Under the pieces are notes generated by a model, which did no database searches, was not told the origin of the DNA, and was given only the letters and a program-made list of their open reading frames with translations. Position numbers and translations under genes: made by a program. From the human T2T-CHM13v2.0 reference genome, Homo sapiens, in contig CP068257.2 in assembly GCA_009914755.4 (NCBI GenBank), forward strand, positions 11,264,001-11,328,000: a stretch of 64,000 nucleotides of DNA, written 5' to 3'. Shown piece by piece: positions 1,868-52,500 of this stretch. Every line of letters starts with the position of its first letter. Position 1 is the stretch's first letter.

Positions 1868-1898
1868 ATGCTTCTGTCTATTTTTTATGGGAAGATAT

Positions 1899-3612: not shown

Positions 3613-3737
3613 TCCTCCAAGCTATCCAAATATCCACTTGCAGATTCCACAAAAAGAGTGTTTCAAAACTGCTCTCTATCAATGGCAAAGTTCAACTCTG
3701 TTAGTTGAGGACACATATCACCAACAAGTTTCTGAGA

Positions 3738-28800: not shown

Positions 28801-29990
28801 TTCCAGACACTACAAAAAGAGTGTTTCAAACGTGCTCTAAGAAAGCGAATGTTCAACTCTGTGACTTGAATGCAGATATCACCAAGTAGTTTCTGAGAGG
28901 GCTTCTGTCTAGATTTTAGATGATGATATTCCCGCTTCCAACGAAATCATTAGAGCTATCCAAATATCCACTTACAGTTTCTACAAAAAGAGTGTTTCCA
29001 AACTGCTGCATCAAAAGAATGGTTCAACTCTGTTAGTTGAGGACACACATCACAAAGAAGTTTGTGAGAATGCTTCTGTCTAGATTTTGTATGACGATAT
29101 TCCCTTTTCCAACGATATCGTTAAAGCAATCTAAATATCAATTTGCAGAATCCACAAAAATAGAGTTTCAAAGCTGCTCGGTAAAAAGAAAGGTTCCACT
29201 CTGTTAGCTGAGTACACACATCACAAACTTGTTTCTGAGAATCCTTCTGTCTCGTTTTTATGGGAAGATATTTCCTTTTTCACCGTAGGCATCAAAGCGC
29301 TCAAAATGTCCACTTCCAGATTCTTCCAAAAGAGTGTTTCAAACGTGCTCAAAGTAAGGGAATGTTCAACTCTGTGACTTGAATGCAGATATCACCAAGT
29401 AGTTTCTAATAGTGCTTCTGTCTAGATTTTAGATGATGATATTCCCGTTTCCAACGAAATCGTTACAGCTATCCAAATATCCACTTACAGTTTCTACAAA
29501 AAGAGTGTTTGCAAACTGCTGCATCAAAAGAAAGGTTCAACTCTGTTAGTTGAGGACACACATCACAAAGAAGTTTGTGAGAATGCTTCTGTCTAGATTT
29601 TGTATGACCATATTCCCTTTTCCAACGATATCATTAAAGCAATCTAAATATCCATTTGCAGAATCCACAAAAATAGAGTTTCAAAGCTGCTCTGTAAAAA
29701 GAAAAGTTCCACTCTGTTAGCTGAGTACACACATCACAAACTTGTTTCTGAGAATCCTTCTGTCTCGTTTTTATGGGAAGATATTTACTTTTTCACCGTA
29801 GGCATCAAAGCGCTCCAAATGTCCACATCCAGATACTCCAGAAAGAGTGTTTCAAACCTGCTCTATGAAAGGGAATCTTCAACTCTATGAGTTGAATGCA
29901 GACATCAGAAAGAAATTTCTGAGAATGCTGCTGTCTACCTTTCATTTGAATTCCCGCTTCCAACGAAATCCTCCAGTCTATCCAAATATC
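25890..29990 (-). repeat. Zone of rearranged HOR variants (7-, 8- and 5-monomer register steps) produced by exchanges between paralogous monomers; still >97% identical to canonical monomers
   Basis: Marker steps are 25207 to 26400 = 1,193 (7 monomers), 26400 to 27251 = 851 (vs canonical 680), and 28441 to 29805 = 1,364 (8 monomers). Jumps run from rel ~1450 back to rel ~620 at ~26,950 and ~28,990. The hybrid junction gcgctcaaaatgtccacttccagattcttcc occurs at ~25,897 and ~29,298. Confidence 0.75.
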
Positions 29991-32185: not shown

Positions 32186-33970
32186 CACTTGCAGATTCCA
32201 CAAAAAGAGTGTTTCTAAACTGCTCTATCAATGGCAAGGTTCAACTCTGTCAGTTGAGGATACACATCACAAACAAGTTTCTGAGAATTCTTCAATTTTT
32301 TTATGGGAAGATATTTCCTTTTTCACCGTAGGCGTCAAAGCGATCGAAATGTCTTCATCCATACAATACAAAAAGTGTGTTTCAAACCTGCTCTATGAAA
32401 GGGAATGTTCATCTCTATGTGTTGAATGGAAATATCAGAAAGAAATTTCTGAGAATGCTGCTACTTTTTTATGAATTCCCGCTTCCAACGAAATCCTCAA
32501 AGCAATCCAAATATCCACTTGCAGATTCCACAAAAAGAGTGTTTCAAAACTGCTCTATCAAGAGAAAGGTTCAACTCTTTTAGTTGAGTACACACATCAC
32601 ATACAAGTTTCTGAGAAAGCTTCTGTCTACTTTTTAAGGGAAGACATTTCCTTTTTCACCAAATGCATCAAAGCGCTCCAAATGTCCACTTCCAGATTCT
32701 ACAAAAAGAGTGTTTCAAACCTGCTCTAAGTAAGGGAGTTTTCAACTCTGTGACTGGAATGCAGATATCACAAAGTAGTTTCTGAGACTGATTCTGTGTA
32801 TACTTTAGATGAAGGTATTCCCGTTTCCAATGATATCGTTAGATCTACCCAAATATCCACTTACAGTTTCTACTAAAAGAGTGTTTCCAAACTGCTGCAT
32901 CTAAAGAAAGTTTCAACTCTGTGAGTTGAGGACGCACATCACAAAGAAATTTCTGAGAAAGCTTCTGTCTAGATTTTGTATGAAGATATTCCCTTTTCCA
33001 ACGATATCGTTAAATCAACCCAAATATCAATTTGCAGAATCCACAGAAATAGAGTTTCAAAGCTGCTCTGTAAAAAGAAAGGATCCACTCTGTTAGCTGA
33101 GTACACACATCACAAACTTGTTTCTGAGAATCCTTCTGTCTAGTTTTTATGGGAAGATATTTACTTTTTCACCGTAGGTATCAAAGCGCTCCAAATGTCC
33201 ACATCCAGATACTACAGAAAGAGTGTTTCAAACCTGCTCTATGAAAGGGAATCTTCAACTCTATGAGTTGAATGCAGACATCAGAAAGTAATTTCTGAGA
33301 ATGCTGCTGTCTACCTTTCATTTGAATTCCCGCTTCCAACGAAATCCTCCAAGCTATCCAAATATTCACTTGCAGATTCCACAAAAAGAGTGTTTCAAAA
33401 CTACTCTATCAATAGAAAGGTACAACTGTGTCAGTTGAGGACACACATCACAAACAAGTTTCTCAGAATTCTTCAATTTTTTATGGGAAGACATTTCCTT
33501 TTTCACCGTAGGCGTCAAAGCACTCCAAATGTCCACATCCAGATAGTACAGAAAGAGTGTTTCAAACCTGCTCTATTAAAGGGAATGTTCAACTCTATGA
33601 GTTGAATGCAAACATCAGAAAGAAATTTCTGAGAACGCTGCTGTCTACCTTTTATTTGATTTCCCGCTTCCAACGAAAACCTCCAAGCTATCCAAATATC
33701 CACTTGCAGATTCCACAAAAAGAGTGTTTCAAAACTGCTCTATCAATAGAAATGTTCAACTCCTTTCGCTGGGTACACACATCACAAACAAGTTTCTGAG
33801 AAAGCTTCTGTCTAGTTTTTATGGGAAGACATTTCCTTTTTCACCAAAGGCATCAAAGAGCTCCAAATGTCCACTTCCAGATACTACAAAAAGAGTGTTT
33901 CAAAAGTGCTCTAAGAAAGCGAATGTTCAACTCTGTGACTTGAATGCAGATATCACAAAGTAGTTTCTGA
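32186..33970 (-). repeat. Diverged HOR, copy B (truncated at ~1,785 bp); ~98-99% identical to copy A. It blends into the canonical HOR at ~33,960-33,990.
   Basis: As for copy A. The diverged marker gtttttacatgatgat (31,790) is replaced by canonical gattttagatgatgat at 33,985. Confidence 0.75.
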
Positions 33971-36900
33971 GAGTGCTTCTGTCTAGATTTTAGATGATGA
34001 TATTCCCGTTTCCAACGAAATCATTAGAGCTATCGAAATATCCACTTACAGTTTCTACAAAAAGAGTGTTTCCAAACTGCTGCATCAAAAGAGAGGTTCC
34101 ACTCTGTTAGCTGAGTACACACATCACAAACTTGTTTCTCAGAATCCTTCTGTCTCGTTTTTATGGGAAGATATTTACTTTTTCACCGTAGGCATCAAAG
34201 CGCTCCAAATGTCCACATCCAGATACTCCAGAAAGAGTGTTTCAAACCTGCTCTATGAAAGGGAATCTTCAACTCTATGAGTTGAATGCAGACATCAGAA
34301 AGAAATTTCTGAGAATGCTGCTGTCTACCTTTTATTTGAATTCCCGATTCCAACGAAATCCTCCAAGCTATCCAAATATCCACTTGCAGATTCCACAAAA
34401 AGAGTGTTTCAAAACTGCTCTCTATCAATGGCAAAGTTCAACTCTGTTAGTTGAGGACACATATCACCAACAAGTTTCTGAGAATGCTTCTGTCTATTTT
34501 TTATGGGAAGATATTTCCTTTTTCACCGTAGGCGTCAAGGCGATCGAAATGTCCACTTCCACAAACTACAAAAAGAGTGTTTCAAACCTGCTCTATGAAA
34601 GGCCATGTTCATCTCTATGAGTTGAATGGAAATATCCGAAAGAAATTTCTGGGAATGCTGCTGTCTAGTTTTTATATGAATTCCCGCTTCCAACGAAATC
34701 CTCAAAGCAATCCAAATATCCACTTGCAGAATCCACAAAAAGAGTGTTGCAAAACTGCTCTATCAATAGAAAGGTTCAACTCTTTTAGTTGAGTACACAC
34801 ATCACAAACAAGTTTCTGAGAATGCTTCTGTCTGGCTTTTATTGGAAGACGTTTCCTTTTCACCAAAGGCATCAAAGCGTTACAAATGTCCACTTCCAGA
34901 TTCTTCCAAAAGAGTGTTTCAAACGTGCTCAAAGTAAGGGAATGTTCAACTCTGTGACTTGAATGCAGATATCACCAAGTAGTTTCTAATGGTGCTTCTG
35001 TCTAGATTTTAGATAATGATATTCCCGTTTCCAACAAAATCGTTAGAGCTATCCAAATATCCACTTACAGTTTCTACAAAAAGAGCGTTTCCAAACTGCT
35101 GCATCAAAAGAAAGGTTCAACTCTGTTAGTTGAGGACACACATCACAAAGAAGTTTGTGAGAATGCTTCTGTCTAGATTTTGTATGACCATATTCCCTTT
35201 TCCAACGATATCATTAAAGCAATCTAAATATCAATTTGCAGAATCCACAAAAATAGAGTTTCAAAGCTGCTCTGTAAAAAGAAAGGTTCCACTCTGTTAG
35301 CTGAGTACACACATCACAAACTTGTTTCTGAGAATCCTTCTGTCTCGTTATTATGGGAAGATATTTACTTTTTCACCGTAGGCATCAAAGCGCTCCAAAT
35401 GTCCACATCCAGATACTCCAGAAAGAGTGTTTCAAACCTGCTCTATGAAAGGGAATCTTCAACTCTATGAGTTGAATGCAGACATCAGAAAGAAATTTCT
35501 GAGAATGCTGCTGTCTACCTTTTATTTGAATTCCCGCTTCCAACGAAATCCTCCAAGCTATCCAAATATCCACCTGCATTTTCCACAAAAAGAGAGTTTC
35601 AAAACTGCTCTATCAATAGAAATGTTCATCTCCTTTGGCTGGGTACACACATCACAAACAAGTTTCTGAGAATGCTTCTGTCTAGTTTTTATGGGAAGAC
35701 ATTCCCTTTTTCACCAAAGGCATCAAAGCGCTCCAAATGTCCACTTCCAGACACTACAAAAAGTGTGTTTCCAACGTGCTCTAAGAAAGCGAATGTTCAA
35801 CTCTGTGACTTGAATGCAGATATCACAAAGTAGTTTCTGAGAGGGCTTCTGTCTAGATATTAGATGATGATATTCCCGTTTCCAACGAAATCATTAGAGC
35901 TATCCAAATATCCACTTACAGTTTCTACAAAAAGAGTGTTTCCAAACTGCTGCATCAAAAGAGAGGTTCCACTCTGTTAGCTGAGTACACACATCACAAA
36001 CTTGTTTCTCAGAATCCTTCTGTCTCGTTTTTATGGGAAGATATTTACTTTCTCACCGCAGGCATCAAAGCGCTCCAAATGTCCACATCCATATACTCCA
36101 GAAAGAGTGTTTCAAACCTGCTCTATGAAAGGGAATCTTCAACTCTATGAGTTGAATGCAGACATCAGAAAGAAATTTCTGAGAATGCTGCTGTCTACCT
36201 TTTATTTGAATTCCCGCTTCCAACGAAATCCTCCAAGCTATCCAAATATCCACTTGCAGATTCCACAAAAAGAGTGTTTCAAAACTGCTCTCTATCAATG
36301 GCAAAGTTCAACTCTGTTAGTTGAGGACACATATCACCAACAAGTTTCTGAGAATGCTTCTGTCTATTTTTTATGGGAAGATATTTCCTTTTTCACCGTA
36401 GGCGTCAAGGCGATCGAAATGTCCACTTCCACAAACTACAAAAAGAGTGTTTCAAACCTGCTCTATGAAAGGCCATGTTCATCTCTATGAGTTGAATGGA
36501 AATATCCGAAAGAAATTTCTGGGAATGCTGCTGTCTAGTGTTTATACGAATTCCCGCTTCCAACGAAATCCTCAAAGCAATCCAAATATCCACTTGCAGA
36601 ATCCACAAAAAGAGTGTTTCAAAACTGCTCTATCAATAGAAAGGTTCAACTCTTTTAGTTGAGTACACACATCACAAACAAGTTTCTGAGAATGCTTCTG
36701 TCTGGCTTTTATTGGAAGACGTTTCCTTTTCAACAAAGGTATCAAAGCGCTCCAAATGTCCACTTCCAGATTCTTCCAAAAGAGTGTTTCAAACGTGCTC
36801 AAAGTAAGGGAATGTTCAACTCTGTGACTTGAATGCAGATATCACCAAGTAGTTTGTAATAGTGCTTCTGTCTAGATTTTAGATGATGATATTCCCGTTT

Positions 36901-39860
36901 CCAACGAAATCGTTAGAGCTATCCAAATATCCACTTACAGTTTCTACAAAAAGAGTGTTTCCAAACTGCTGCATCAAAAGAAAGGTTCAACTCTGTTAGT
37001 TGAGGACACACATCACAAAGAAGTTTGTGAGAATGCTTCTGTCTAGATTTTGTATGACGATATTCCCTTTTCCAACGATATCGTTAAAGCAATCTAAATA
37101 TCAATTTGCAGAATCCACAAAAATAGAGTTTCAAAGCTGCTCTGTAAAAAGAAAGGTTCCACTCTGTTAGCTGAGTACACACATCACAAACTTGTTTCTC
37201 AGAATCCTTCTGTCTCGTTTTTATGGGAAGATATTTACTTTTTCACCGTGGGCATCAAAGCACTCCAAATGTCCACATCCAGATACTCCAGAAAGAGTGT
37301 TTCAAACCTGCTCTATGAAAGGGAATCTTCAACTCTATGAGTTGAATGCAGACATCAGAAAGAAATTTCTGAGAATGCTGCTGTCTACCTTTTATTTGAA
37401 TTCCCGCTTCCAACGAAATCCTCCAAGCTATCCAAATATCCACTTGCATTTTCCACAAAAAGAGTGTTTCAAAACTGCTCTATCAATAGAAATGTTCAAC
37501 TCCTTTGGCTGGGTACACACATCACAAACAAGTTTCTGAGAATGCTTCTGTCTAGTTTTTATGGGAAGACATTCCCTTTTTCACCAAAGGCATCAAAGCG
37601 CTCCAAATGTCCACTTCCAGACACTACAAAAAGAGTGTTTCAAACGTGCTCTAAGAAAGCGAATGTTCAACTCTGTGACTTGAATGCAGATATCACAAAG
37701 CAGATTCTGAGAGGGCTTCTGTCTAGATTTTAGATGATGATATTCCCGTTTCCAACGAAATCATTAGAGCTATCGAAATATCCACTTACAGTTTCTACAA
37801 AAAGAGTGTTTCCAAACTGCTGCATCAAAAGAGAGGTTCCACTCTGTTAGCTGAGTACACACATCACAAACTTGTTTCTGAGAATCCTTCTGTCTCGTTT
37901 TTATGGGAAGATATTTACTTTTTCACCGTAGGCATCAAAGCGCTCCAAATGTCCACATCCAGATACTCCAGAAAGAGTGTTTCAAACCTGCTCTATGAAA
38001 GGGAATCTTCAACTCTTTGAGTTGAATGCAGACATCAGAAAGAAATTTCTGAGAATGCTGCTGTCTACCTTTTATTTGAATTCCCGCTTCCAACGAAATC
38101 CTCCAAGCTATCCAAATATCCACTTGCAGATTCCACAAAAAGAGTGTTTCAAAACTGCTCTCTGTCAATGGCAAAGTTCAACTCTGTTAGTTGAGGACAC
38201 ATATCACCAACAACTTTCTGAGAATGCTTCTGTCTATTTTTTATGGGAAGATATTTCCTTTTTCACCTTAGGCATCAAGGCGATCGAAATGTCCACTTCC
38301 ACAAACTACAAAAAGAGTGTTTCAAACCTGCTCTATGAAAGGCCATGTTCATCTCTATGAGTTGAATGGAAATATCCGAAAGAAATTTCTGGGAATGCTG
38401 CTGTCTAGTTTTTATACGAATTCCCGCTTCCAACGAAATCCTCAAATCAATCCAAATATCCACTTGCAGAATCCACAAAAAGAGTGTTTCAAAACTGCTC
38501 TATGAATAGAAAGGTTCAACTCTTTTAGTTGAGTACACACATCACAAACAAGTTTCTGAGAATGCTGCTGTTGGGCTTTTATTGGAAGACGTTTCCTTTT
38601 CACCAAAGGCATCAAAGCGCTCCAAATGTCCACTTCCAGATTCTTCCAAAAGAGTGTTTCAAACGTGCTCAAAGTAAGGGAATGTTCAACTCTGTGACTT
38701 GAATGCAGATATCAAAAAGTAGTTTCTGAGAGTGCTTCTGTCTAGATTTTAGATGATGATATTCCCGTTTCCAACGAAATCATTAGAGCTATCCAAATAT
38801 CCACTTACAGTTTCTACAAAAAGAGTGTTTCCAAACTGCTGCATCAAAAGAGAGGTTCCACTCTGTTAGCTGAGTACACACATCACAAACTTGTTTCTCA
38901 GAATCCTTCTGTCTCGTTTTTATGGGAAGATATTTACTTTTTCACCGTAGGCATCAAAGCGCTCCAAATGTCCACATCCAGATACTCCAGAAAGAGTGTT
39001 TCAAACCTGCTCTATGAAAGGGAATCTTCAACTCTATGAGTTGAATGCAGACATCAGAAAGAAATTTCTGAGAATGCTGCTGTCTACCTTTTATTTGAAT
39101 TCCCGCTTCCAACGAAATCCTCCAAGCTATCCAAATATCCACCTGCATTTTCCACAAAAAGAGAGTTTCAAAACTGCTCTATCAATAGAAATGTTCAACT
39201 CCTTTGGCTGGGTACACACAGCACAAACAAGTTTCTGAGAATGCTTCTGTCTAGTTTTTATGGGAAGACATTCCCTTTTTCACCAAAGGCATCAGAGCGC
39301 TCCAAAGGTCCACTTTCAGACACTACAAAAAGAGTGTTTCAAACGTGCTCTAAGAAAGCGAATGTTCAACTCTGTGACTTGAATGCAGATATCACAAAGT
39401 AGTTTCTGAGAGGGCTTCTGTCTAGATTTTAGATGATGATATTCCCGTTTCCAACGAAATCATTAGAGCTATCCAAATATCCACTTACAGTTTCTACAAA
39501 AAGAGTGTTTCCAAACTGCTGCATCAAAAGAGAGGTTCCACTCTGTTAGCTGAGTACACACATCACAAACTTGTTTCTCAGAATCCTTCTGTCTCGTTTT
39601 TATGGGAAGATATTTACTTTTTCACCGTAGGCATCAAAGCGCTCCAAATGTCCACATCCAGATACTCCAGAAAGAGTGTTTCAAACCTGCTCTATGAAAG
39701 GGAATCTTCAACTCTATGAGTTGAATGCAGACATCAGAAAGAAATTTCTGAGAATGCTGCTGTCTACCTTTTATTTGAATTCCCGCTTCCAACGAAATCC
39801 TCCAAGCTATCCAAATATCCACTTGCATTTTCCACAAAAAGAGTGTTTCAAAACGGCTCT
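33971..39860 (-). repeat. Resumed canonical-type HOR: full units at 34,484-36,353 and 36,354-38,223, then a rearranged unit at 38,224-39,860 with an m3-to-m9 jump at ~38,700
   Basis: Markers 34195 (+1581), 34535, 34702, 35385, 36065, 36405, 36572, 37255, 37464, 37935, 38275 and 38442 keep the 1,870 register. 37255 to 38954 = 1,699, one monomer short. At 38,701, atatcaaaaagtagtttctgagagtgcttctgtctagattttagatgatgat is an m8/m9-type junction following m3. Confidence 0.75.
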
Positions 39861-41260
39861 CTATCAATGTCAAAGTTCAACTCTTTTAGTTGAGTACACA
39901 CATCACAAACAAGTTTCTGAGAAAGCTTCTGTCTACTTTTTAAGGGAAGACATTTCCTTTTTCACCAAAGGCATCAAAGCGCTCCAAATGTCCACTTCCA
40001 GATTCTACAAAAAGAGTGTTTCAAACCTGCTCTAAGTAAGAGAGTTTTCAACTCTGTGACTGGAATGCAGATATCACAAAGTAGTTTCTGAGACTGCTTC
40101 TGTGTATACTTTAGATGAAGATATTCCCGTTTCCAACGATATCGTTAGACCTATCCAAATATCCACTTACAGTTTCTACAAAAAGAGTGTTTCCAAACTG
40201 CTGCATCAAAAGAAAGGTTCAAGTCTGTTAGTTGAGGACACACATCACAAAGAAGTTTCTGAGAAAGCTTCTCTCTAGATTTTGTATGAAGATATTCCCT
40301 TTTCCAACGATATCCTTAAATCAACCCAAATATCAATTTGCAGAATCCACAGAAATAGAGTTTCAAAGCTGCTCTGTAAAAAGAAAGGATCCACTCTGTT
40401 AGCTGAGTACACACATCACAAACTTGTTTCTGAGAATCCTTCTGTCTAGTTTTTATGGGAAGATATTTACTTTTTCACAGTAGGTATCAAAGCGCTCCAA
40501 ATGTCCACATCCAGATACTACAGAAAGAGTGTTTCAAACCTGCTCTATGAAAGGGAATCTTCAACTCTATGAGTTGAATGCAGATATCAGAAAGTAATTT
40601 CTGAGAATGCTGCTGTCTACCTTTCATTTGAATTCCCGCTTCCAACGAAATCCTCCAAGCTATCCAAGTATTCACTTGCAGATTCCACAAAAAGAGTGTT
40701 TCAAAACTACTCTATCAATAGAAAGGTACAACTCTGTCAGTTGAGGACACACATCACAAACAAGTTTCTGAGAATTCTTCAATTTTTTATGGGAAGACAT
40801 TTCCTTTTTCACCGTAGGCATCAAAGCGCTCCAAATGTCCACATCCAGATAGTACAGAAAGAGTGTTTCAAACCTGCTCTATTAAAGGGAATGTTCAACT
40901 CTATGAGTTGAATGCAAACATCAGAAAGGAATTTCTGAGAATGCTGCTGTCTAGCTTTTATGTGAATTCCCGCTTCCAACGAAAAACTCCAAGCTATCCA
41001 AATATCCACTTGCAGATTCCACAAAAAGAGTGTTTCAAAACTGCTCTATCAATAGAAATGTTCAACTCCTTTCGCTGGGTACACAGATCACAAACAAGTT
41101 TCTGAGAATGCTTCTGTCTAGTTTTTATGGGAAGACATTTCCTTTTTCACCAAAGGCATCAAAGAGCTCCAAATGTCCACTTCCAGATATACAAAAAGAG
41201 TGTTTCAAAAGTGCTCTAAGAAAGCGAATGTTCAACTCTGTGACTTGAATGCAGATATCA
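39861..41260 (-). repeat. Third (partial, ~1.4 kb) copy of the diverged HOR; ~95% identical to 30,360-31,760
   Basis: ORFs at 40487, 40696, 40821, 40863 and 41030 correspond to 30986, 31195, 31320, 31362 and 31529 at a constant offset of 9,501. 39,890-40,150 matches 30,390-30,650. Confidence 0.7.
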
Positions 41261-43500
41261 CAAAGTAGTTTCTGAGAGTGCTTCTCTCTAGATTCTAGAC
41301 GAAGATACTGCCGTTTCCATCGATATCGTTAGAGCTATCCAAATATCCGCTTGCTATTTCTACAAAAAGAGTATTTGCAAACTGCTGTATCAAAGACAGG
41401 TTGTACTCTGTTAGTTGACGACACTCCTCACAAAGGAGTTTCTGAGAATGCTTCTGTCTAATTTTTATTGGAAGATGTCTCCTTTTTCACCATAGGCCTG
41501 AAAGCGCTCGAAATGTCCCCTTCCAGATAGTACAGAAAGAGTGTTTCAAACCTGCTCTATGAAAGGAAATTTTCAATTCTGTGACTTAAAAGCAAACATC
41601 ACAAAGAAGCTTCTGAGAATTCTGCTGTCTTCTTTTTTATGTCATACCGTTTCTAACGAAATCCTCAAAGCTATCCAATTATCCACTTGCAGATTCCACA
41701 AAAAGAGTGTTTGAAAACTGATCTATAAATAGAAAAGTTCAACTCTGTTGGTTGAGTACATACTTCACAAAGTAGTTTGTTAGAATGTTTCTGTCTAGTT
41801 TTTATCGGAAGACATTTCCTTTTTCACCAAAGGCGTCAAAGCGCTCCAAATGTCCACTTCCAGATTCTACAAAATGAGTTTTCAAACCTGCTCTAAGAAA
41901 GGGAATGTTCAACTCTGTGACTTGAATGCAGATATCACAAAGTAGTTTCTGAGAGTGCTTCTGTGTATACTTTAGATGAAGATATTCCCGTTTCCAACGA
42001 TATCGTTAGACCTATCCAAATATCCACTTACAGTTTCTACAAAAAGAGTGTTTCCAAACTTCTGCATCAAAAGAAAAGTTCAACTCTGTTAGTTGAGGAC
42101 AGACATCAGAAAGAAGTTTCTGAGAATGCTTCTCTCTAGATTTTGTATGAAGATATTCCCGTTTCCAGGAATATCGTTAAAGCAATCCAAATATCAACTT
42201 GCAGATTCCACGGAAATAGAGTTTCTAAGCTGCTCTGTAAAAAGAAAGGTTCCACTCTGTTAGGTGAGTACGCACATCACAAACATATTTCTGAGAATCC
42301 TTCTGTCTAGTTTTTATGGGAAGATATTTCCATTTTCACCATAGGTGTCAAAGCACTCCTAATGTCCACTTCCCGATACTACAAAAAGGGTGTTTCAACC
42401 CGGCTCTATGAAATTGAATGTTCAACTCTACGAGTTGAATGAAAAGATCATGAAGAAGTTTCTGAGAATGCTTCTGTCTAGATTTTGTATGAAGGTATTC
42501 CCGTTTCCAACGAAACCCTCTAAGCTATCCAAATTTCCACTTACAGATTCTTCAAAAAGAGTGTTTCAAACCTGCTCTGTCAAAAGAAAGGTTCAACTCT
42601 GTTAGTTGAGGTAACACATCACAAACAAGTTTCTGAGAATGCTTCTGTCTTTTTTTTATTGGAAGATATTTCCTTTTTCACAATAGGCGACAAAGTGCTC
42701 GAAATATCCACTTGCACATACTACAAAAAGTGTGTTTCAAACCTGCTCTATGAAAGGAAATGTTCAACTCTATGAGTTGAAAGCAAACATCAAAAAGAAA
42801 TTTCTGAGAATGCTGCTGTCTACTTTTTATATGAATTCCCGTTTCCAATGAAATCCTCAAAGCAATCCAAGTATCCCCTTGTAGATTCCACAAAAAGAGT
42901 GTTTCAAAACTCCTCTATGAACAGCAAGGTTCAACTCTGTTAGTTGGGACACACATCACAAAGAGTTTTCTGAGAATGCTTCTATGTAGATTTTATATGA
43001 AGATATTCCCGTTTCCAACGAAATCCACAAAGCCATCCAACATCCCCTTGCCGATTCTACAAAAAGAGTGTTTCAAAACTGCTCTGTAAAAAGAAAGGTT
43101 CAACTCTGTTAATTGAGTACAGACATCCCAAACATGTTTCTGAGAATGCTTCTGTCCAGTTTTTAATGGAAGATATTTCCTTTTTCACCATAGGCGTCAA
43201 AGCGCTCCAAATGTCCAATTCCAGATACTACAAAAAAGAGTGTTTCAAACCTGCTCTATGTAAGGGAATGTTTATCTCTACGAATTGAATGAAAACATCA
43301 CAAGAAGTTTCTAGGAATGCTTCTGTCTAGGTTTTATAGGAAGATATTCCCGTTTCCAACGAAATCCTCAAGGCTATCCAAATATCCACTTCCAGATTCG
43401 ACAAAAAGAGTGTTTCAAAACTGGTCTGTCAAAAGAAAATTTCAACTCTGTTAGTTGAGTACATATATCACAAACCGGTTTCTGAGAATGCTTCTGTCTA
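41261..43500 (-). repeat. Decayed HOR-related alpha monomers (~80-90% identity to HOR monomers), a transition layer
   Basis: Monomers 41,930-42,330 are recognisably m3-m6-like (gtgtatactttagatgaagatattcccgtttccaacgatatcgttagacctatccaaatatcc; cf. 40,100 and 30,610), but much more diverged. No in-register repeat was seen. Confidence 0.5.
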
Positions 43501-46500
43501 GTTTTTATGGGAAGATATTTCCTTTTTCACCGAAGGCATCAAAACGCTCCAAATATCCACTTCCAGATACTACAAAAAGAGTGTTTCAAACCTGCTCTAT
43601 GAAAGGGAATGATGTTCAAATCTGTGACTTGAATGCGGATATCACAAAGCGGTTTCTGAGAGTGCTTCTGTCGAGATTTTATATGAAGATATTCCCGTTT
43701 CCAAAGAAATATTTAGCGCTATCCAAAGATCCACTTGCAGATTCTACAAAAAGAGTGTTTCCAAACTGCTGTATCAAAAGAAAGGTTCAACATCTGTGAA
43801 CATAAAGATGTTTCTGATAATGATTCTGTCTAGTTTTTATGTGGAGATATTCCCGTTTCGAACGAAGGCCTCAAAGTGCTACAAATGACAACTTGCAGAT
43901 TCTGCAAAAAGAGTGTTTCAAAACTGTTCTATGAAAAGAAATGTTCAACTCTGAGAGTTGAATGCAAACGTCACAAAGAAGTTTCTGAGAATGCTTCTGT
44001 CTGGTTTTTATGTGAAGATATTACCGTTTCCAACGAAAGCCTCAAAGATGTCCTAATATCCACTTATGAATTCTACAAGAAGTGTTTCAAAAGTGCTCTT
44101 TCAAAGGAAAGGTTTAACACTGTGAGTTGAGTACACACATCACAAAGCAGTTTCTTAGCATGCTTCTGTCTAGTTTTTATGTGAAGATATTTCCTTTTTC
44201 ACCATAGGCCTCAAAGCGCTCCAAATGTCCACTTCCAAATACTGCAAAAAGAGTGTTACAAAACTACTCTATGAAAGGGAATGTTCAACTCTGTGAGTTG
44301 AATGCAAACATCACAAAGAAGTTTCTGAGAACGCTTCTGTCTAGTTTTTATGTGAAGATATTCCCGTTTCGAACGAAGGCCACAAAGCTCTCCAAATGTC
44401 CACCTGCAGATTCCAGAAAACGAGTGTTTCAAATCTCCTCTATCAAAAAAATTGTTAAACTCTGTGAGTTGAGTACACATATCACAAAGAAGTTTCTGTG
44501 AATTCTTGTGTGTAATTTTTATGGGAAGATATTTCCTTTATCACAATACACCTCAAAGAGCTCCAAACGTCCACTTGCAGATTCTACAAAAAGTGTGTTT
44601 CAAAACTGCCCTATGAAAAGGAATGTTCAACTCCATGAGTTGAATGCAAACATCAAAAAGAAGTTTCTGAGAATGCTTCTTTCTAGTTTTTATGTGAGGA
44701 TATTCCCGTTTCCACGGAAATCCTCAAAGCTATCCAAATATCCACTTGCAGATACTACAAAAAGATTGTTTCAAAATTGGTCTATCAAAATAAAGTTCAA
44801 CTCTGTGAATTGAGTACACACATCACAAAGAAGTCTCTGATAATTCTTCTGACTAGTTTTTATGTGAAGATATTTCCTTTTTCACCATAGGCCTCAAATC
44901 GCTCCAAATGTCCACTTCCAGATACTACAAAAAGTGTGTTTCAAAACTGCTCTATGTAAGGGAATTTTCAAATCTGTGAGTTGAATGCAAACATCACAAA
45001 GAAGTTTCTGAGAATGCTTCTGTCTAGTTTTTATGTGAAGGCATTCCCGTTTCCTACGAAATCCTCAAAGCTATCCAAATATCCTCTTGCAGATTCTACA
45101 AAAAGCGTGTTTCAAAACTGCTCTATCAAAAGAAAAGTTCAACTCTGTGAGTTGAGTACACACCTCACAAAGAAGTTTCTGAGAATTTTTATGTCTATTT
45201 TTTATGGGAAGATATTTCCTTTTTTATCATAGACCTCAAAGCCCTCCAAGTTTCCACTTACACATTCTACAAAAAGTGTTTCAAAACTGCTCTATGAAAA
45301 GGAATTTTCAATTCTGTGAGTTGAATGGAAGCATCACAAAGAAGTTTCTTACAATGCTTCTGTGTGGTTTTTATGTGAAGATATACCCGTTTCCAGTGAA
45401 GGCCTCCAATCTCTCCAAATATCCACTTCCAAATTCTACAAAAAGATTGTTTCCAATCTCCTCTATCAAAAGAAAATTTCAACTCTGTGAGTTGAATGCA
45501 CACATCACAAAAAAGTTTCTGAGAATGCTTCTGTCTAGTTTTTTGTGAAGATAATCCCGTTTCCAAAGAAATCCTCAATGCTGTCTTAATATCCACTTGT
45601 AAATTCTACAAGAAGAGTGTTTCAAAACTGCTGTATCAAAAGAAAGGTTTAACTCTGTGAGTTGAGTACACACATCACAAAGTAGTTTCTGAGAATGCTT
45701 CTGTCTACTTTTTATGTGAAGATATTTCCTTTTTCACCATAGGTCTCAAATCTCTCCAAATATCCACTTGCATATTCCTCAAAAAGAGTGTTTCAAAACT
45801 GCTCTATGAAAAGGAACGTTCAACTCTGTGAAATGAATGCAAGCATCACAAATAAGTCTCTGAGAATGCTTCTCTCTAGTTTTTATATGAAGATATTCCC
45901 GTTTCCAACGAAATCCTCAAAGCTATCCAAATATCCACTTGCACACTTGACAAAAAGAGTGTTTCAAAATTGCAGTATCAAAAGAAAAGTTCAAATCTGT
46001 GAATTGAGTACACACATCAGACAGAAGTATCTGAGAATTCTTCTGTCTAGTTTTTATTGGAAGATATTTCCTTTTTCATCATATGCATCAAAGAGCTCCA
46101 TGTTTCCACTTACAGATCCTTCAAAAAGAGTGTTTCAAAACTGCTCTATGAAAAGGAATGTTCAACTCTGTGAGTTAAATAAAAGCATCAAAAAAAAGTT
46201 TCTGAGAATGCTTCTGTCTAGTTTTTATGTGAAGATATTTCCATTTTCTCTATAAGCCTCAAAGCTGTCCAAATGTCCACTTGCAGATACTACAAAAAGA
46301 GTGTTTCAAAAGTGCTCAATGAAAAGGAATGTTCAGCTCTGTGAGTTAAATGCAAACATCACAAATAAGTTTCTGAGAATGCTTCTGTCTAGTTTTTATG
46401 GGAAGATAATTCCGTGTCCAGCGAAGGCTTCAAAGCTTTCAAAATATCCACTTGCAAATTCTACAAAAAGAGTGTTTCAAAGCTGCTTTATCAAAAGAAA

Positions 46501-49500
46501 GTTTCAACTCTGTGAGTTGAATGTGCACATCACAAAGAAGTTTCTGAGAATGCCTTCAGTCTGGTTTTTATGTGAAGATATTCCCTTTTCCAACGAAAGC
46601 CTCGAAGCTGTCCAAATATCCACTTGTAAGTGCTGCAAAAAGAGTGTTTCAAAACTGCTACAGCAAAAGAAAGGTTTATCTCTGTGAGTTGAGTAGACAC
46701 ATCAAGAAGAAATTTCTGAGAATGCTTCTGTCTAGTTTTTATGTGAAGATATTTCCTTTGTCACCATAGGCCTCCAAGCCCTCCAAATGTCCACTTGCAG
46801 ATGCTACAAAAAGAGTGTTTCAAAACTGCTGTATGAAAAGAAATGCTCAAATCTGTGAGATAAATGCATACATCACAAAGAAGTCTTTGAGAATGCTTCT
46901 GTCTAGTTTTTATGTTAAGATATTTCCTATTTCACCATACGTCTCAACGCACACAAAATGTACACTTGCAGATGCTACAAAGAGAGTGTTTCAAAACTTG
47001 TAGATCAAAACAAGTGTTCAACTTTGTGAGTTGAGGACACACATCTGAAAGAAGTTTCTGAGAATGCTTCTGTCTAGTTTTTATGTGAAGATATTCCCGT
47101 TTCCAGCGAAAGCCCCAAAACTATCCAAATATCCACTTGCACATTCTACAAAAAGAGTGTTTCAAATCTGCTCTATCAAAATAAAGGTTCAACTCTGTGA
47201 GTTGACTACACACATCACAAAGAAGTTTCTAAGAATGCTTCTGTCTGGTTTTTATGGGAAGATATTTCCTTTTTCAACATAGGCCTTGCAGCATCTACAA
47301 AAAGAGTTTTTCAAAACTCCTCTAAGAAAAGGAATGTTCAACTCCATGAGTTTAATGCAAAGATCACAAAGAAGTTTCTGAGAATGCTTCTGTCTAGTTT
47401 TAACCTGAAGACAGTTCCGTTTCCAGTGAAGGCTTGAAAGCTGTCCAAATATCCACATGCAAATTCTCAAAACGAGTGTTTAAAAGCTGCTCTATCACTA
47501 GAAAGTTTCACCTCTGTGAGCTGAATGCACACAGAAGTTTCTGAGAATGCTTCTGTCTGGTTTTTATGTGAAGATATTCCCGTTTCCAACCAAAGCCTCA
47601 AAGCTGTCCAAATATCCATTTGCAGATCCTACAGGGAGAGTGTTTCAAAACTGCTCTATAAAAAGAAAGGTTCTACTCTGTGAGTGGAGTACACACATCA
47701 CAAAGAAGTTTCTGAGAATGCTTCTGTCTAGTTTTTATGTGAAAATAGTTCGTTCTCCAAAATAGTCCTCAAAGCGCTCCAAATGTCCACTTGCAGATTC
47801 TACAAAAAGAGTGTTTCAAAACTGCTCTATGAAAAGGAATGTTCAACTCTGTGAGCTGAATGCAACCATCACAAAGAATTTTCTGAGAATGATTCTAATT
47901 ATTATGTGAAGATATTCCCGTTTCGAACGAAGGCCTCAAAGCGCTCCAGATGTCCACTTGCAGATTCTACAAAAAGAGTGTTTCAAAACTGCCCTATGGA
48001 AAGGAGGATTCAACTCTATGAGTTGAATGCACACATCACAAATGGTTTTTGCGAATGCTTCTGTCTGCTTTTTATGTGAAGATATTTCCTTTTTCACCAT
48101 AGGCCTCAAAGAAATCCAAATATCCACTTGCAGATACTACAGAAAGATTGTTTCAAAACTTCTGTTTCGACTCTGTGAGTTGAATGCACACATCATAAAG
48201 AAGTTTCTGAGAATGCTTCTGTCTAGTTTTTTTGTGAAGATATTCCCGTTTCCAAGGAAAGCCTCAAAGCTGTCCTAATATCCACTTTTGAATTTTACAA
48301 GTAGAGTGTTTGAAAACTGCTCTGTCAAAAGAAAGGTTTAACTCTGTGTGTTGAGGGCTCACATCACAAAGAAGTTTCTGAGAATGCTTCCATCTATTTT
48401 TTATGTTAAGATATTTCCTTTTTCACCATAGGCCTCAAAGCACACCAAATGTCCACTTGCATATTGTGCAAAGAGTGTTTCAAAACTGTGCTATCAAAAG
48501 AAGCGTTCAACACTGTGAGTTGAACGCACACATCACAAAGAAGTTTCTGAGCATGCTTCTGTATAGTTTTTATGTGAAGATATTCCCGTATCCGAAGAAG
48601 GCCTCCAGGTGGTCTAAATATTTGCACATTCTACTAAAAGAGTGTTTAAAAGCTGCTGTATGATAAAGTATGTTCGAATTTGTGAGTTGAATGCACACAT
48701 CACAAAGAAGTTTCTGAGAATGCTTCTGTCTAATATTTATGTGAAGATATTACGGTTTCCAACGAAGTCCTCAAAACCGTCCAAATATCCACTTGCAGAT
48801 TTTATAAAAAGAGTGTTTCAAAGCTGCTCTATCAAAAGAAAGCTTCAACACTGTGAGTGGAATGCACACATCACAAAGTAGTTTCTGAAAATGCTGCTGT
48901 CTAGTTTTTATGTGAAGATATTCCCATTTCCAATGAAGGCCACAAAGCCGTCCAAATATCCACTTGCAGATTCCACTAAAAGAGTGTTTCGAAACTGCTC
49001 TATGATAAGGAATGTTCAACTCTGTTAATTGAAGGCAAACATCACAAAGAAGTTTCTCAGAATGCTTCTCTCTAGTTTTTGTGTGAAGATATATCCTTTT
49101 CCATCATAGGCCTCTAAGCTCTCCAAATGTCCACTTGCAGATTCTACAAAAAGAGTGTTTCAAAACTGCTCTCTCAAAAGTAAGGTTCAACTTTTTGAGT
49201 TTAATACACACATCACATAGAAGCTTCTGAGAATGCTTCCGTCTAGTGTTTGTGTTAAGATATTCCCGTTTCCAACGAAGGCTTCAAAGCGGTCAAAATA
49301 TCCTCTTGCAGATACTACAAAAAGCGTGTATCAAAACTGCTCCATGAAAAGGTATGTTCAACCCTGTGAGTTCAATGTAAACATCACAAAGAAGTTTCTG
49401 AGAATGCTTGTGTCTGTTTTTTTGTGTGAAGATGTATCCTTTTCCACCATAGTCCTCAAAGCTCTCCAAATGTGCACTTGCAGATTCTACAAAAAGTGTG

Positions 49501-52500
49501 TTTCAAAACTCCTCTACCAAAAGAAAGGTTCAACTCTGTGAGTTTAATGCCCAGATCACAGACAAGTTTCTTAGGATGCTTCTGTCTAATGTTTATGTGA
49601 AGATATTCCCGTTTCCAACTAAGGCCTCAAAGAAGTCCAAATATCCAATTGCAGATTCTACAAAAAGAGCATTTCAAAACCTCTCTATGAAAATTTATGT
49701 TCAACTCTTTGAGCTGAATGCAAAGATCACAAAGAAGTTTCTGAGAATTCTTCTGTCTCATTTTTATATAAAGATATTTCCTTTTCCACCATTGGCCTCA
49801 AACCTCTCCAAATGTCCACATACAGATTCTACAAAAAGAGTGTTTAAAACCTGCTGTATCAAAAGAAGGGATCAACTCTGTGAGATGAATGAACACATCA
49901 CAAAGAAGTTTCTGAGAATGATTCTGTCTAGTTTTTATGTGAAGATATTCCCGTTTCCAACGAAGGCCTCAAAGGGGTCCAAATATCCACCCACAGACCG
50001 TGAAAAAAGAGTGATTCAAAACTGCTCTATCAAAAGAAAGGTTCAACTCTGTGAGTTGAATTTACACATCACAAAGAAGTTTCTGAGAATGCTGCTATCT
50101 ACTCTTTATGTGAACATATTCCCATTTCCAACGAAGACCTCAAACAATTCGAAATATCCACTTGCAGATTCTACTAAAAGATTGTTTCAAAAGTGCTCTC
50201 ATAAGGAATGTTCAACTCTGTGAGGTGAAAGCAAACATCACCAAGAAGTTTCTGAGAATGCTTCTGTCTAGTTTTTATGGAAAGATATTTTCTTTTCCAC
50301 CGTAGGCCTTAAAGCGCTCCAAATGTCCACTTGCAGATCCTACAAAAAGAGTGTCTCAAAAGTGCTCTCATAAGGAATGTTCAACTCTGTGAGGTGAAAG
50401 CAAACATCACCAAGAAGTTTCTGAGAATGCTTCTGTCTAGTTTTTATGGGAAGATATTTCCTTTTCCACCGTAGGCCTTAAAGCGCTCCAAATGTCCACT
50501 TGCAGATCCTACAAAAAGAGTGTCTCAAACCTACTCTCTCAAAAGAAAGGTTCAACTGTGTGAGTTGAATACACACGGCACAAAGAAGTTTCTGAGAAAG
50601 ATTCTGTCTAGCGATTATGTGAAGATATTCCCGTTTCCAACAAAGGCTTGTAAGTGGTCCAAATATCCACTTGCAGATTCTACTAAAAGAGTGTTTCTAA
50701 ACAGCTCTATGATAAGATATGCTTAACTCTGTGAGTTGAGAACAAACATCACAAAGAAGTTTCTGAGAATGCTTCTGTCTAGTTTTTATGTGAAGATATT
50801 TCCTTTCCCACCATAGGCCTCAAAGTGCTCCAAATGTCAACTTGGAGATTATGCAAAAAGAGTGTTTCCAACCTGCTCTATCAAAAGAAATGTTCAACTC
50901 TGTGAGATGAAAGCACATATCACAGAGAAGTTTCTGAGAATTCTTCTGTCTGGTTTTAATATGAAGATATTTCCTTTTCCACCATAGGATTCAAAGCTCT
51001 CCAAATGTCCACTTGCAGATTCTACAAAAAGAGTGTCTCAAAACTGCTCTATCAAAAGAAAGGGTCAAATCTGTGGGTTGAATGCACACATCACAAAGAA
51101 GTTTCTGGGAATGCATCTTTCTAGTTTTTATGTGAAGATATTCCCGTATCCAATGAAGGCCTCAAAGCAGTCCACATATCCACTTGCAGATTCTGCAAAA
51201 AGTGTTTCAAAACTGCTCTATCAAAAGAAATGTTCAACTCTGTGAGTTGAATGTACACATCACAAGGAAGTTTCTGAGACTGCTGCTGTCTAGTATTTAT
51301 GTGAAGATATTCCCGTTTCCAATGAAGGCCTCTAGGCGTTCCAAATATCCACTTGCAGATTCTCCTGAAGGAGTTTTTCAAAAATGCCCTGTGATAAAGT
51401 ATGACCAATTCTGTGAGTTGAATGCAAACATCAGAAAGAAGTTTCTGAGAATGCTTCTGTATAGTTTTGATGTGAAGATATTTCTTTTTCCACCATAGGC
51501 CTCAAAGCTCTCCAAATGTCCACATGCAGATTCCACGCAAAGAGTGTTGCAAACCTGCTCTATCAAAAGAAAGGTTCAGCTCTGTGAGTTGAATGCAAAC
51601 ATCACAAAGAAGTTTCTGAGAAGGCTTCTGTCTAGCATTTCTGTGAAGATACACCCGTTTCCAATGAAGGCCTCAAAGCGGTCGAAATATCCACTTGCAG
51701 ATTCTCCAAAAAGTGTTTCAAACCTGCTCTATCAAAAGCAAGGTTCAACTCTGTGAGATGAATGCACACATCACAAAGAAATTTCTGAGAATGCTTCTGT
51801 TTAGTTTTTATGCGATGATATTTCCTTTTCTACCAGAGGCCTCAAGCTCTCCAAATGTCCAAAAGCAGATTTTACAAAAAGAGTGTTTCAAAACTGCTCC
51901 ATCAAAAGGAAGGTTCAACTCTGTGAGTTGAATGCAAACATCACAAAGAAGTTTCTGAAAATGCTTCTGTCTAGTGTTTATATGAAGATATACCCGTTTC
52001 TAACGAAGGCCTCAAAGCAGTCCAAATATCCACTAGCAGAATCTACAAAAAGAGTGTTTCAAACCTGCTCTATCAAAAGAAAGGTTCAACTCTGCCAATG
52101 GAATGCACACATCACTAAGGAGTTTTTGAGAATGCTTCTGTCAAGTGTTTATGTGAAGATATTCACGTTGCCACGAAGGCCTCAAAGCGGTCCAAATATC
52201 CACTTGCAAATTCTACTGAAAGAGTGTTTCAACACTGCTCTATGATAAGGTATGTTCAACTCTGTGAGTTGAATGCAAACATCACAAAGAAGTTTCTGAG
52301 AATGCTTCCGTCTAGTTTTTATATGAAGACATTTCCTTTTCCAACATAGGCCTCAAACCGCCCCAAATGTCCACTTGCAGATTCTACAAAAAGAGGGTTT
52401 TAAACCCGCTCTATCAAAAGAAAGGTTCAACTCCGTGAGTTGACTCCACACAGCACAAAGAAGTTTCTGAGAATGCTTCTATCTCGTGATTATGTGACGA

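What the first reader, a model, noticed from the sequence alone, without database searches (positions are those of the whole stretch)
39800..43600. HOR-to-monomeric transition (array edge) with a gradient of divergence
Moving rightwards, identity to the canonical HOR falls stepwise: >99% at 1-25.9 kb; mosaic variants at 25.9-30 kb; ~90-95% diverged HOR at 30-34 kb and 39.9-41.3 kb; ~80-90% relics at 41.3-43.5 kb; then unrelated A/B monomers. This is the layered centromere-flank organisation. The boundary near 41.26 kb (...gacttgaatgcagatatcacaaagtagtttctgagagtgcttctctctagattctagacgaagatactgcc...) is where HOR periodicity is lost for good.
Basis: partly seen in the sequence, partly recalled or inferred. 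Interest (0 to 1): 0.6.

Follow-up and report, generated by a model that had tools for sequence, protein, structure and literature searches.

The report
Edge of chromosome 13/21 centromere array
This is the edge of the human chromosome 13/21 centromeric alpha-satellite array, where near-identical 11-monomer repeats give way at one sharp breakpoint to old, diverged single monomers; this layout is real but already well described.

Summary
The whole window is 171-bp alpha satellite. Positions 1-25,838 are a 1,870-bp 11-monomer higher-order repeat (HOR), 98.7-99.7% identical to its consensus. EcoRI pattern, CENP-B boxes and published primers identify it as the alpha21-I / D13Z1-D21Z1 HOR. A 2.5-kb relic zone (41,286-43,822; 81-92% to the HOR) still keeps traces of HOR monomer order. 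From 43,823 the sequence is monomeric: no HOR-lag signal and no monomer pair above 93.6%.

Corrections:
- The decline is not monotonic: 33,976-39,874 is canonical HOR again (98.8%).
- The "diverged HOR" at 30-34 kb and at 39.9-41.3 kb is one distinct 13-monomer variant, 98-99% identical between its copies. It also occurs in two independent public contigs.
- Homogeneity falls in a single step at 41,281 (nearest-neighbour identity 99.5% to 87.9%), not as a gradient.
- The relic keeps only 53% of HOR-specific bases, so it is an older, less derived layer rather than a decayed modern copy.

This is the known layered-centromere organisation, so novelty and interest are low.

The parts
1..25838 (-). 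Canonical 1,870-bp 11-monomer HOR array, about 13.8 units, of the alpha21-I / D13Z1-D21Z1 type. The conventional alpha-satellite orientation is on the minus strand.
   Evidence: Lag 1,870 autocorrelation is 0.92. Units are 98.7-99.7% identical to the consensus. Lag-11 monomer identity is 99.2%, z = 25.7. EcoRI fragments are 850/680/340 bp, there are five functional CENP-B boxes plus one inactive box, and published primers match exactly.
25839..29927 (-). Structural-variant HOR units with rearranged monomer order, including 12-monomer units that carry monomers 8,4,5 in place of 8,9. Monomers are 94-100% identical to canonical ones.
   Evidence: Monomer order 3,4,5,10,7,8,4,5,10,11,1,2,3,4,5,10,7,8,4,5,3,4,5,10. 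Lag 2,041 bp autocorrelation is 0.78.
29928..33975 (-). Nearly two copies of a distinct 13-monomer variant HOR (period 2,195 bp; order 11,1,2,8,4,5,10,11,10,7,8,9,10). The second copy loses its last two monomers to the canonical block. Mean identity to canonical monomers is 93.2%.
   Evidence: Lag-13 identity is 99.1%, z = 8.7. Independent contigs L001 and L002 match at 97.2-98.3%, against about 92% to the canonical HOR.
33976..39874 (-). Re-entrant block of canonical HOR, about 3 units with one 3->9 deletion variant at 38.7 kb. It joins the variant array in register at both ends.
   Evidence: Monomers are 95.9-100% identical to canonical, mean 98.8%. The left junction runs 8->9 in register. 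The right junction lies inside mosaic monomer 39,757-39,925, with the switch at about 39,875.
39875..41285 (-). Third, partial copy of the 13-monomer variant HOR (monomer types 2(3' part),8,4,5,10,11,10,7,8).
   Evidence: Monomers are 97.0-99.4% identical to their counterparts at 30.4-31.8 kb, except the d-type monomer at 40,097 (95.9%). There are 26 differences in 1,411 bp against copy 1.
41281..41286 (.). Homogenisation boundary: the last base of HOR-level identity. It coincides with a monomer boundary, and monomer type order (8 then 4/9-type) continues across it.
Evidence: Difference density jumps from 1.84% to 18.45%, p = 9e-35. The change point of both identity series is at 41,281.
41286..43822 (-). 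Relic (divergent-HOR) zone of 15 monomers. Type order is d, a b c d e, a b, a b b, a b c d. Identity to canonical monomers is 80.8-92.4%. HOR-specific monomer types c, d and e are still recognisable.
   Evidence: The lag-5 signal has z = 3.1. A lag-11 echo links 41,788-42,299 to 39,926-40,438 at 92/96/91%. HOR-specific bases are kept at 53% of diagnostic sites and private changes are 8.3%. The register gap is 1-4 points up to about 43.0 kb.
43823..59609 (-). Monomeric alpha satellite with irregular alternation of A-type and B-type monomers (SF5-like, resembling R1/R2). There is no HOR and functional CENP-B boxes are sparse.
   Evidence: A/B typing. A and B consensus sequences are 91-95% alike. 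Monomers are 4-10 points closer to the flank consensus than to any HOR monomer. The lag profile is flat and the maximum pair identity is 93.6%.
59610..64000 (-). A-type-only monomeric alpha satellite, about 25 monomers, with its own consensus differences. It is a further outer layer: pure R2 or SF4-like, not resolved here.
   Evidence: The A/B string shows no B-type monomer after index 350. The group consensus is 91.8-94.7% identical to the inner A-type consensus sequences. Identity to HOR monomers is lowest here, 79.2%.

Best explanation
The window covers one edge of the human D13Z1/D21Z1 (alpha21-I, suprachromosomal family 2) centromeric HOR array and the older alpha-satellite layers outside it.

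Shown here:
- Inside the array, units are kept near-identical.
- Next to the edge sits a sister HOR, a 13-monomer variant 93% identical to the canonical unit and 98-99% identical between its own copies.
- Canonical units lie within that variant array, joined in register at both ends.
- At 41,281-41,286 HOR-level identity stops abruptly.
- Outside that point lie, in order: a 2.5-kb relic that keeps HOR monomer order but only about half of the HOR-specific bases; irregular A/B monomers; and then A-only monomers. All carry about 8% private changes per site, and none has a partner above 94%.

Inferred from the established model:
- Homogeneity inside the array is maintained by repeated unequal crossing-over and gene conversion.
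- Units at an array edge cannot pair out of register with the non-homologous flank, so they escape this turnover and follow their own mutational path.
- New repeat variants expand in the core and push older generations outward, so the layers are successive generations, youngest nearest the core.
- The canonical block entered the variant array by in-register recombination.
For: Identity of the HOR:
- It has 11 monomers in 1,870 bp.
- EcoRI fragments are 850/680/340 bp, the 5mer/4mer/2mer subunits described for the alpha21-I 11mer in PMC2173396.
- There are five functional CENP-B boxes, plus one inactive box identical to the inactive motif in that paper's primers.
- Primers T1, T3, SA1 and SA4 match exactly, as do the chromosome 13/21 primers of PMC2853522. 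Primers for D1Z5, D17Z1, chromosome 3 and D5Z2 give no hit at one mismatch or fewer on the HOR; the only such hits are three 1-mismatch matches of chromosome 3 primer 3A in the right-hand flank.
- Human-contaminant contigs match at up to 99.8%.

Layers:
- The variant copies are 98.1-99.1% alike, and contigs L001 and L002 match the variant at 97.2-98.3%.
- The junctions are in register and one lies in a mosaic monomer.
- There is a single change point at 41,281, with p = 9e-35.
- Nearest-neighbour identity drops from 99.5% to 87.9% with no further trend.
- No HOR lag exists beyond 43.8 kb.
- HOR-specific base states are kept at 97% (canonical), 77% (variant), 53% (relic) and 22% (monomeric) of diagnostic sites, with private changes of 1.1/4/8.3/7.9%.

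Literature:
- Edge units escape unequal crossing-over (PMC4410388).
- Divergent-HOR and monomeric layers flank HOR arrays after a steep step of about 10% (bioRxiv 10.1101/2021.07.12.452052).
[quoted passage not shown] S1 legend).
Against: - Nothing in the sequence contradicts the explanation, but several parts are inferred rather than shown.
- No chromatin data exist here, so "active array" is taken from the literature on D13Z1/D21Z1.
- Chromosome 13 versus 21, and the p or q side, could not be determined.
- The flank consensus used as the ancestral proxy was built from the flank monomers themselves. That inflates the figures for the monomeric block and assumes the flank is ancestral.
- The best-HOR-monomer assignment biases relic monomers towards HOR states.
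- The order of events (canonical block invading the variant array, or variant units being dispersed) is not resolved.
- The breakpoint-specific 35-mer was not found in any other public contig, so the junction itself has no independent replicate.
Confidence: 0.9

Rival explanations
1. Simple decay gradient. All diverged units to the right of the core are copies of the modern canonical HOR that accumulated random mutations in proportion to their distance from the core, with no distinct layers or generations.
For: Identity to the canonical HOR does fall block by block towards the right. Private-change rates rise from 1.1% to about 8%.
Against: - The variant copies are 98-99% identical to one another, so their 7% difference from the canonical unit is fixed, not random decay. 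The variant also exists in other samples.
- The relic carries the flank-consensus base at 40% of diagnostic sites, whereas about 3% is expected from its 8.3% private rate.
- Nearest-neighbour identity shows one step and no gradient.
- Canonical HOR reappears at 34-39.9 kb.
Confidence: 0.05
2. Assembly artefact. The alternation canonical / variant / canonical / variant and the abrupt 41,281 junction are mis-joins or collapses in a hard-to-assemble satellite, not real genome structure.
For: Satellite arrays are prone to mis-assembly. The breakpoint 35-mer has no exact match in the two public collections scanned.
Against: - All junctions are in register with respect to monomer type, and one lies in a mosaic monomer. 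This fits homologous recombination rather than an arbitrary join.
- The variant HOR is independently present in contigs L001 and L002.
- The layout matches what is reported at other human array edges (PMC2729386; bioRxiv 10.1101/2021.07.12.452052).
- The scanned collections hold very little human DNA, so the zero hits carry little weight.
Confidence: 0.04
3. The relic zone (41,286-43,822) is a patchwork made by gene conversion between modern HOR units and the adjacent monomeric flank, not an older archaic generation.
For: HOR states (53%) and flank states (40%) are mixed at diagnostic sites. Neighbouring monomers differ strongly in HOR affinity: monomers 246-248 score +3 to +10 points, others -3 to 0.
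Against: - Private changes in the relic (8.3%) are as high as in the monomeric flank (7.9%), so any conversion must be old.
- Monomer order follows the HOR through the whole zone.
- The d-type monomer at 41,958 is closest to the variant HOR (96.5%), which fits shared descent.
- The two readings are not mutually exclusive.
Confidence: 0.2

Closest known systems
alpha21-I 11mer / D13Z1-D21Z1 (the live SF2 HOR of human chromosomes 13 and 21)
   Same: - 11 monomers, about 1.87 kb.
- EcoRI subunits of 5, 4 and 2 monomers.
- Five functional CENP-B boxes plus one inactive box with the published sequence.
- Exact matches to published alpha21-I and chromosome 13/21 primers (PMC2173396, PMC2853522).
   Different: The unit measured here is 1,870 bp, against 1,866 bp quoted in PMC2853522. 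Whether this copy comes from chromosome 13 or 21 is not resolved.
Divergent-HOR and monomeric layers flanking HOR arrays (layered expansion model: Shepelev 2009, PMC2729386; Altemose 2021, bioRxiv 10.1101/2021.07.12.452052)
   Same: - An abrupt step of about 10 points at the array edge.
- One or two divergent HOR-like units on the border.
- Then monomeric layers with about 17-20% intra-layer divergence, and older layers further out.
   Different: A block of canonical HOR re-enters between variant copies, so the order of layers is locally interrupted. No L1 or other insertions and no inversions are present in this 22-kb flank.
Peripheral variant HOR domains, 93-97% identical to the live HOR (PMC4496801; D17Z1-B is the example named there)
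   Same: The 13-monomer variant is 93.2-93.8% identical to the canonical HOR, lies at the periphery, and is homogeneous in itself.
   Different: Only about 2.7 copies are present in this window. Its total copy number and any centromere competence are unknown.
SF5 (R1/R2) monomeric alpha satellite and alpha21-II
   Same: - Irregular alternation of B-type and A-type monomers.
- No HOR.
- Position directly outside the HOR core.
- Few functional CENP-B boxes: 12 in 118 monomers (definitions in PMC4496801, PMC2173396).
   Different: Not compared with R1/R2 class consensus sequences or with alpha21-II sequence, because neither was available. alpha21-II is described as having no CENP-B boxes, whereas this flank has a few.

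Membership tests
alpha21-I / D13Z1-D21Z1 11-monomer HOR | HOR of 11 alpha monomers, about 1.9 kb, tandemly repeated with very high identity | tested here: met
   The period is 1,870 bp and units are 98.7-99.7% identical to the consensus. Lag-11 identity is 99.2%.
alpha21-I / D13Z1-D21Z1 11-monomer HOR | EcoRI cuts the unit into 4mer, 2mer and 5mer subunits (PMC2173396) | tested here: met
   EcoRI sites in the consensus give fragments of 850, 680 and 340 bp.
alpha21-I / D13Z1-D21Z1 11-monomer HOR | Five active CENP-B boxes and one inactive box with two base changes (PMC2173396) | tested here: met
   Monomers 2, 4, 7, 9 and 11 fit CCCGnnTnnnnCGAA. The box of monomer 5, with its flanks, matches the published inactive motif GATATTCCCTTTTCCAACGATATCGTT exactly.
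alpha21-I / D13Z1-D21Z1 11-monomer HOR | Published locus-specific primers anneal | tested here: met
   Primers 13/21-3A and 13/21-1B match exactly, convergently, in every canonical unit. T1, T3, SA1 and SA4 match exactly. Primers for other arrays give no hit on the HOR at one mismatch or fewer.
D1Z5 (chromosome 1, SF3, 11-monomer HOR): my first guess | D1Z5-specific primers anneal, and the A/B order is the SF3 pentamer (W1-W3 of B type, W4-W5 of A type) | tested here: not met
   D1Z5 primers 1A and 1B give no hit at up to 2 mismatches. The A/B order is A B A B B A B A B A B, that is, dimers plus one extra B monomer, not three B followed by two A (PMC4496801 Table 1).
Divergent HOR (dHOR) border zone | Monomers derived from a HOR, order still traceable, but periodicity partly or wholly destroyed and divergence above about 10% | tested here: met
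   In 41,286-43,822 the HOR-specific c, d and e types occur in order, identity is 80.8-92.4%, the register gap is 1-4 points, and only one lag-11 echo remains.
SF5 monomeric layer (R1/R2) | Irregular alternation of B-type and A-type monomers, no HOR, directly flanking the HOR core | tested here: met
   The A/B string is irregular in 43.8-59.6 kb. The lag profile is flat with only a weak lag-2 signal. The layer is adjacent to the relic zone.
SF5 monomeric layer (R1/R2) | Monomers match the R1 and R2 class consensus sequences or HMMs better than those of other classes | not testable with these tools
   No class consensus sequences or HMMs were available in the tools or in the papers read.
Active (kinetochore-forming) centromere array versus inactive flank | CENP-A enrichment and a hypomethylated dip over HOR units, absent from monomeric DNA | not testable with these tools
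   Only sequence is available. CENP-A and CENP-B occupancy of D13Z1/D21Z1 is taken from PMC5741061.

The most novel reading that the evidence does not exclude
The border may preserve a readable record of how the alpha21-I HOR was built and how it spreads. The relic zone keeps only 53% of HOR-specific bases and the 13-monomer variant 77%, which would make them successive archaic generations of the chromosome 13/21 HOR lineage between ancestral A/B monomers and the modern unit. The roughly 5.9-kb canonical block sitting in register inside the variant array would be a caught-in-the-act outward invasion of the live HOR into an older layer by homologous recombination.
Probability: 0.3. Interest if true: 0.3.

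Novelty: already known. Interest (0 to 1): 0.15.

Why it matters
It gives a base-pair-resolved example of where satellite homogenisation stops at a human centromere: one breakpoint at 41,281-41,286. It also shows that the apparent gradient is a stack of discrete generations, consistent with the layered-expansion model, rather than smooth decay. That is useful for annotation (hor / dhor / mon boundaries) and for mapping reads near chromosome 13/21 centromeres. It adds no new principle: this organisation has been described for the X chromosome, chromosomes 8 and 17, and genome-wide in the complete human assembly.

Tried and rejected
1. I first read the 11-monomer unit as an SF3 pentameric HOR and guessed D1Z5 on chromosome 1. 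This was rejected: D1Z5 primers give no hit, chromosome 13/21 primers match exactly, and the A/B order does not fit SF3.
2. I looked for class consensus sequences (R1, R2, M1, D1, D2) in PMC2729386, PMC4496801 and PMC6447721 and their supplement lists. None is held as text, so formal family assignment of the flank was not possible.
3. Supplementary primer tables of PMC5741061, which could have separated chromosome 13 from 21, are not held.
4. Exact search for the 35-mer spanning the 41,284-41,318 breakpoint found no hits in metagenome contigs or genome contigs. This is uninformative because those collections contain little human DNA.
5. The synthetic alpha21-II paper (bioRxiv 10.1101/2020.07.02.184408) gave no natural alpha21-II sequence to compare.
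6. An ORF scan of 39.8-43.9 kb found only four ORFs of 80-119 aa, all with non-ATG starts, as expected for satellite DNA. Not pursued.
7. A search for any longer-period repeat in the right flank found only three 3-monomer local duplications at 87-92%.

Full report
**What is in the window.**
Tandem Repeats Finder reports one 171-bp array over all 64,000 bases. The plus strand is the reverse complement of the usual alpha-satellite orientation, so the CENP-B box reads TCCCGTTTCCAACGAA. A greedy monomer decomposition gave 377 contiguous monomers of 131-174 bp. No insert and no strand switch was seen.

**The HOR and its identity.**
- Ungapped autocorrelation peaks at 1,870 bp in 1-25.9 kb (0.92) and again in 34-39.9 kb (0.88).
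- Thirteen successive units are 98.7-99.7% identical to their consensus.
- The unit has 11 monomers in A/B-type order A B A B B A B A B A B. Monomer 9 is a hybrid of monomer 4 (5' part) and monomer 5 (3' part).
- I first guessed D1Z5 on chromosome 1. That was wrong: D1Z5 primers from PMC2853522 give no hit, while the chromosome 13/21 primers of the same paper match exactly and convergently in every canonical unit.
- The consensus is cut by EcoRI into 850, 680 and 340 bp, the 5mer/4mer/2mer subunits described for the alpha21-I 11mer.
- It has five functional CENP-B boxes, plus one inactive box identical to the published inactive motif. Primers T1, T3, SA1 and SA4 of PMC2173396 match exactly.
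- Human-contaminant contigs in bacterial assemblies match at up to 99.8%.
- The array is therefore the D13Z1/D21Z1 (alpha21-I) HOR, which PMC4496801 lists as a live SF2 array. Chromosome 13 versus 21 could not be resolved.

**Layout along the window** (identity of each monomer to its best canonical monomer).

| Interval | Content | Mean identity |
|---|---|---|
| 1-25,838 | canonical HOR | 99.5% |
| 25,839-29,927 | structural variants, rearranged order | 97.9% |
| 29,928-33,975 | nearly two copies of a 13-monomer variant | 93.2% |
| 33,976-39,756 | canonical HOR again | 98.8% |
| 39,757-41,280 | partial third variant copy | 93.8% |
| 41,281-43,822 | relic zone | 86.5% (80.8-92.4) |
| 43,823 onward | monomeric | 81.6%, 81.0%, then 79.2% |

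**The "diverged HOR" is a distinct variant HOR.**
- Monomers at 39,926-41,280 are 97.0-99.4% identical to their counterparts at 30,425-31,780, except the d-type monomer at 40,097 (95.9%). To canonical monomers they are only 91-96% identical.
- The two left-hand variant copies are 99.1% alike at lag 13. The third differs from the first at 26 of 1,411 positions.
- Two independent metagenome contigs, L001 and L002, match this variant at 97.2-98.3% over 1.6-1.9 kb, against about 92% to the canonical unit.
- The canonical block is joined in register at both ends. On the left, a type-8 monomer is followed by type 9 at 33,976. On the right, the switch lies at about 39,875 inside a mosaic monomer whose 5' part is canonical m7/m11 and whose 3' end is the variant's type-2 monomer. 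This pattern points to homologous, in-register recombination.

**The boundary.**
- Against variant copy 1, differences are 1.84% for 39,875-41,285 and 18.45% for 41,286-41,800 (Fisher p = 9e-35). A perfect 96-bp match immediately precedes 41,286.
- A single-change-point fit puts the break at monomer 243 (position 41,281) for both identity-to-HOR and nearest-neighbour identity. The latter drops from 99.5% to 87.9%.
- To the right, nearest-neighbour identity stays at 87-89% in every block. Homogeneity is therefore lost in one step, not along a gradient.

**The relic zone, 41,286-43,822.**
- Monomer types run d, a b c d e, a b, a b b, a b c d, following HOR order with one dimer missing and about one and a half dimers extra.
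- The HOR-specific c, d and e types remain recognisable. Three monomers at 41,788-42,299 echo 39,926-40,438 at HOR lag, at 92/96/91%.
- The advantage of the best 11-monomer register over the next best is 17-18 points in the HOR and 1-4 points for 11-monomer stretches starting at 38.2-43.0 kb. It is 0.5 or less from about 43.5-43.8 kb.
- At sites where a HOR monomer differs from the flank consensus, the HOR base is kept in 97% of canonical, 77% of variant, 53% of relic and 22% of monomeric monomers. Private changes at the other sites are 1.1, 4, 8.3 and 7.9%.
- With an 8.3% private rate, only about 3% flank-state bases would be expected by chance, against 40% observed. The relic is therefore less derived than the modern HOR: either an older generation or an old conversion patchwork. 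It is not merely a decayed modern copy.
- Caveat: the flank consensus is a proxy for the ancestor and was built from flank monomers.

**The monomeric flank.**
- From 43,823, monomers are 4-10 points closer to the flank A or B consensus than to any HOR monomer.
- A and B consensus sequences are 91-95% alike, against 72-74% between neighbouring A-type and B-type monomers of the HOR.
- A and B types alternate irregularly up to 59,609, after which only A-type monomers occur.
- Mean identity is about 80-81% at every lag from 1 to 58. The only specific periodic signal is a weak lag-2 one (z 3.6); a slight general excess at short lags reflects regional heterogeneity. No pair exceeds 93.6%.
- Functional CENP-B boxes fall from 62 in 152 canonical monomers to 3 in 15 relic monomers and 12 in 118 flank monomers.
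- Same-type divergence of 16-18% is at the young end of the 17-26% range reported for monomeric layers (bioRxiv 10.1101/2021.07.12.452052).
- The features fit SF5 (R1/R2) followed by pure R2 or SF4.

**Mechanism.**
- *Shown:* the discrete layers, one sharp homogenisation boundary, in-register junctions, and a progressive loss of HOR-specific states outward.
- *Inferred from established models:* unequal crossing-over and conversion homogenise the interior, while edge units next to non-homologous sequence escape and diverge (PMC4410388). New variants expand from the core and displace older generations outward (PMC2729386; bioRxiv 10.1101/2021.07.12.452052).
[quoted passage not shown] S1 legend).

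**Rivals.**
- A pure decay gradient is disfavoured by the homogeneity of the variant, by the excess of flank-state bases in the relic, and by the single step in nearest-neighbour identity.
- An assembly artefact is unlikely given the in-register junctions and the independent contigs. However, the 41,281 junction itself has no independent replicate.
- An old conversion patchwork for the relic remains possible and is compatible with the main reading.

**Verdict.**
This is a textbook array edge of a well-studied human centromere. Novelty is "already known" and interest is low.

Noticed in passing
window 1359-1529 (monomer 9 of each canonical unit) and 25,839-29,927: Canonical monomer 9 is a hybrid of monomer 4 (5' ~115 nt) and monomer 5 (3' ~55 nt). 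The 12-monomer variant units at 25.9-30 kb carry separate 4 and 5 monomers in its place. They are either the undeleted progenitor form or the reciprocal product of the unequal crossover that made the 11-monomer unit.
   Followed up: partly
window 38,565-38,905: Within the re-entrant canonical block, monomer 3 is followed directly by monomer 9. This looks like a deletion of monomers 4-8 in one unit.
   Followed up: no
window 59,610-64,000: The flank changes from irregular A/B monomers to A-type only, about 25 monomers. These have their own consensus changes (CTGTGTAG, GAGAGATTC, CTCAGAATG) and the lowest identity to the HOR. It is a further layer boundary outside the flagged interval.
   Followed up: partly
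window 47,136-47,422: TRF reports a local 149-bp period. It corresponds to a truncated 149-bp monomer at 47,238-47,386, followed by a 163-bp monomer.
   Followed up: no
L003-L011 (genome-contig hits): Nine contigs filed under bacterial species or MAGs (Streptomyces, Actinomadura, Campylobacter, a Solemya symbiont and others) carry the canonical monomer-1 29-mer and are human alpha satellite. Several match the canonical HOR at 97-99.8%; L003, L005 and L010 match at only 90-93%. This is human contamination in those assemblies.
   Followed up: partly
L010:1-5106 (NZ_CALIMQ010000125.1, 21-kb contig of a 'Campylobacter' MAG): Positions 2,680-5,106 are alpha satellite about 90% identical to the HOR, while TRF finds no 171-bp array in positions 1-2,679. 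The contig is either a chimera or a human pericentromeric junction binned as bacterial.
   Followed up: no
window 55,015-55,527 vs 57,227-57,739; 60,804-61,311 vs 62,504-63,016: Two short local duplications of three monomers each (87-92% identical, at lags 13 and 10) occur within the otherwise aperiodic flank.
   Followed up: no
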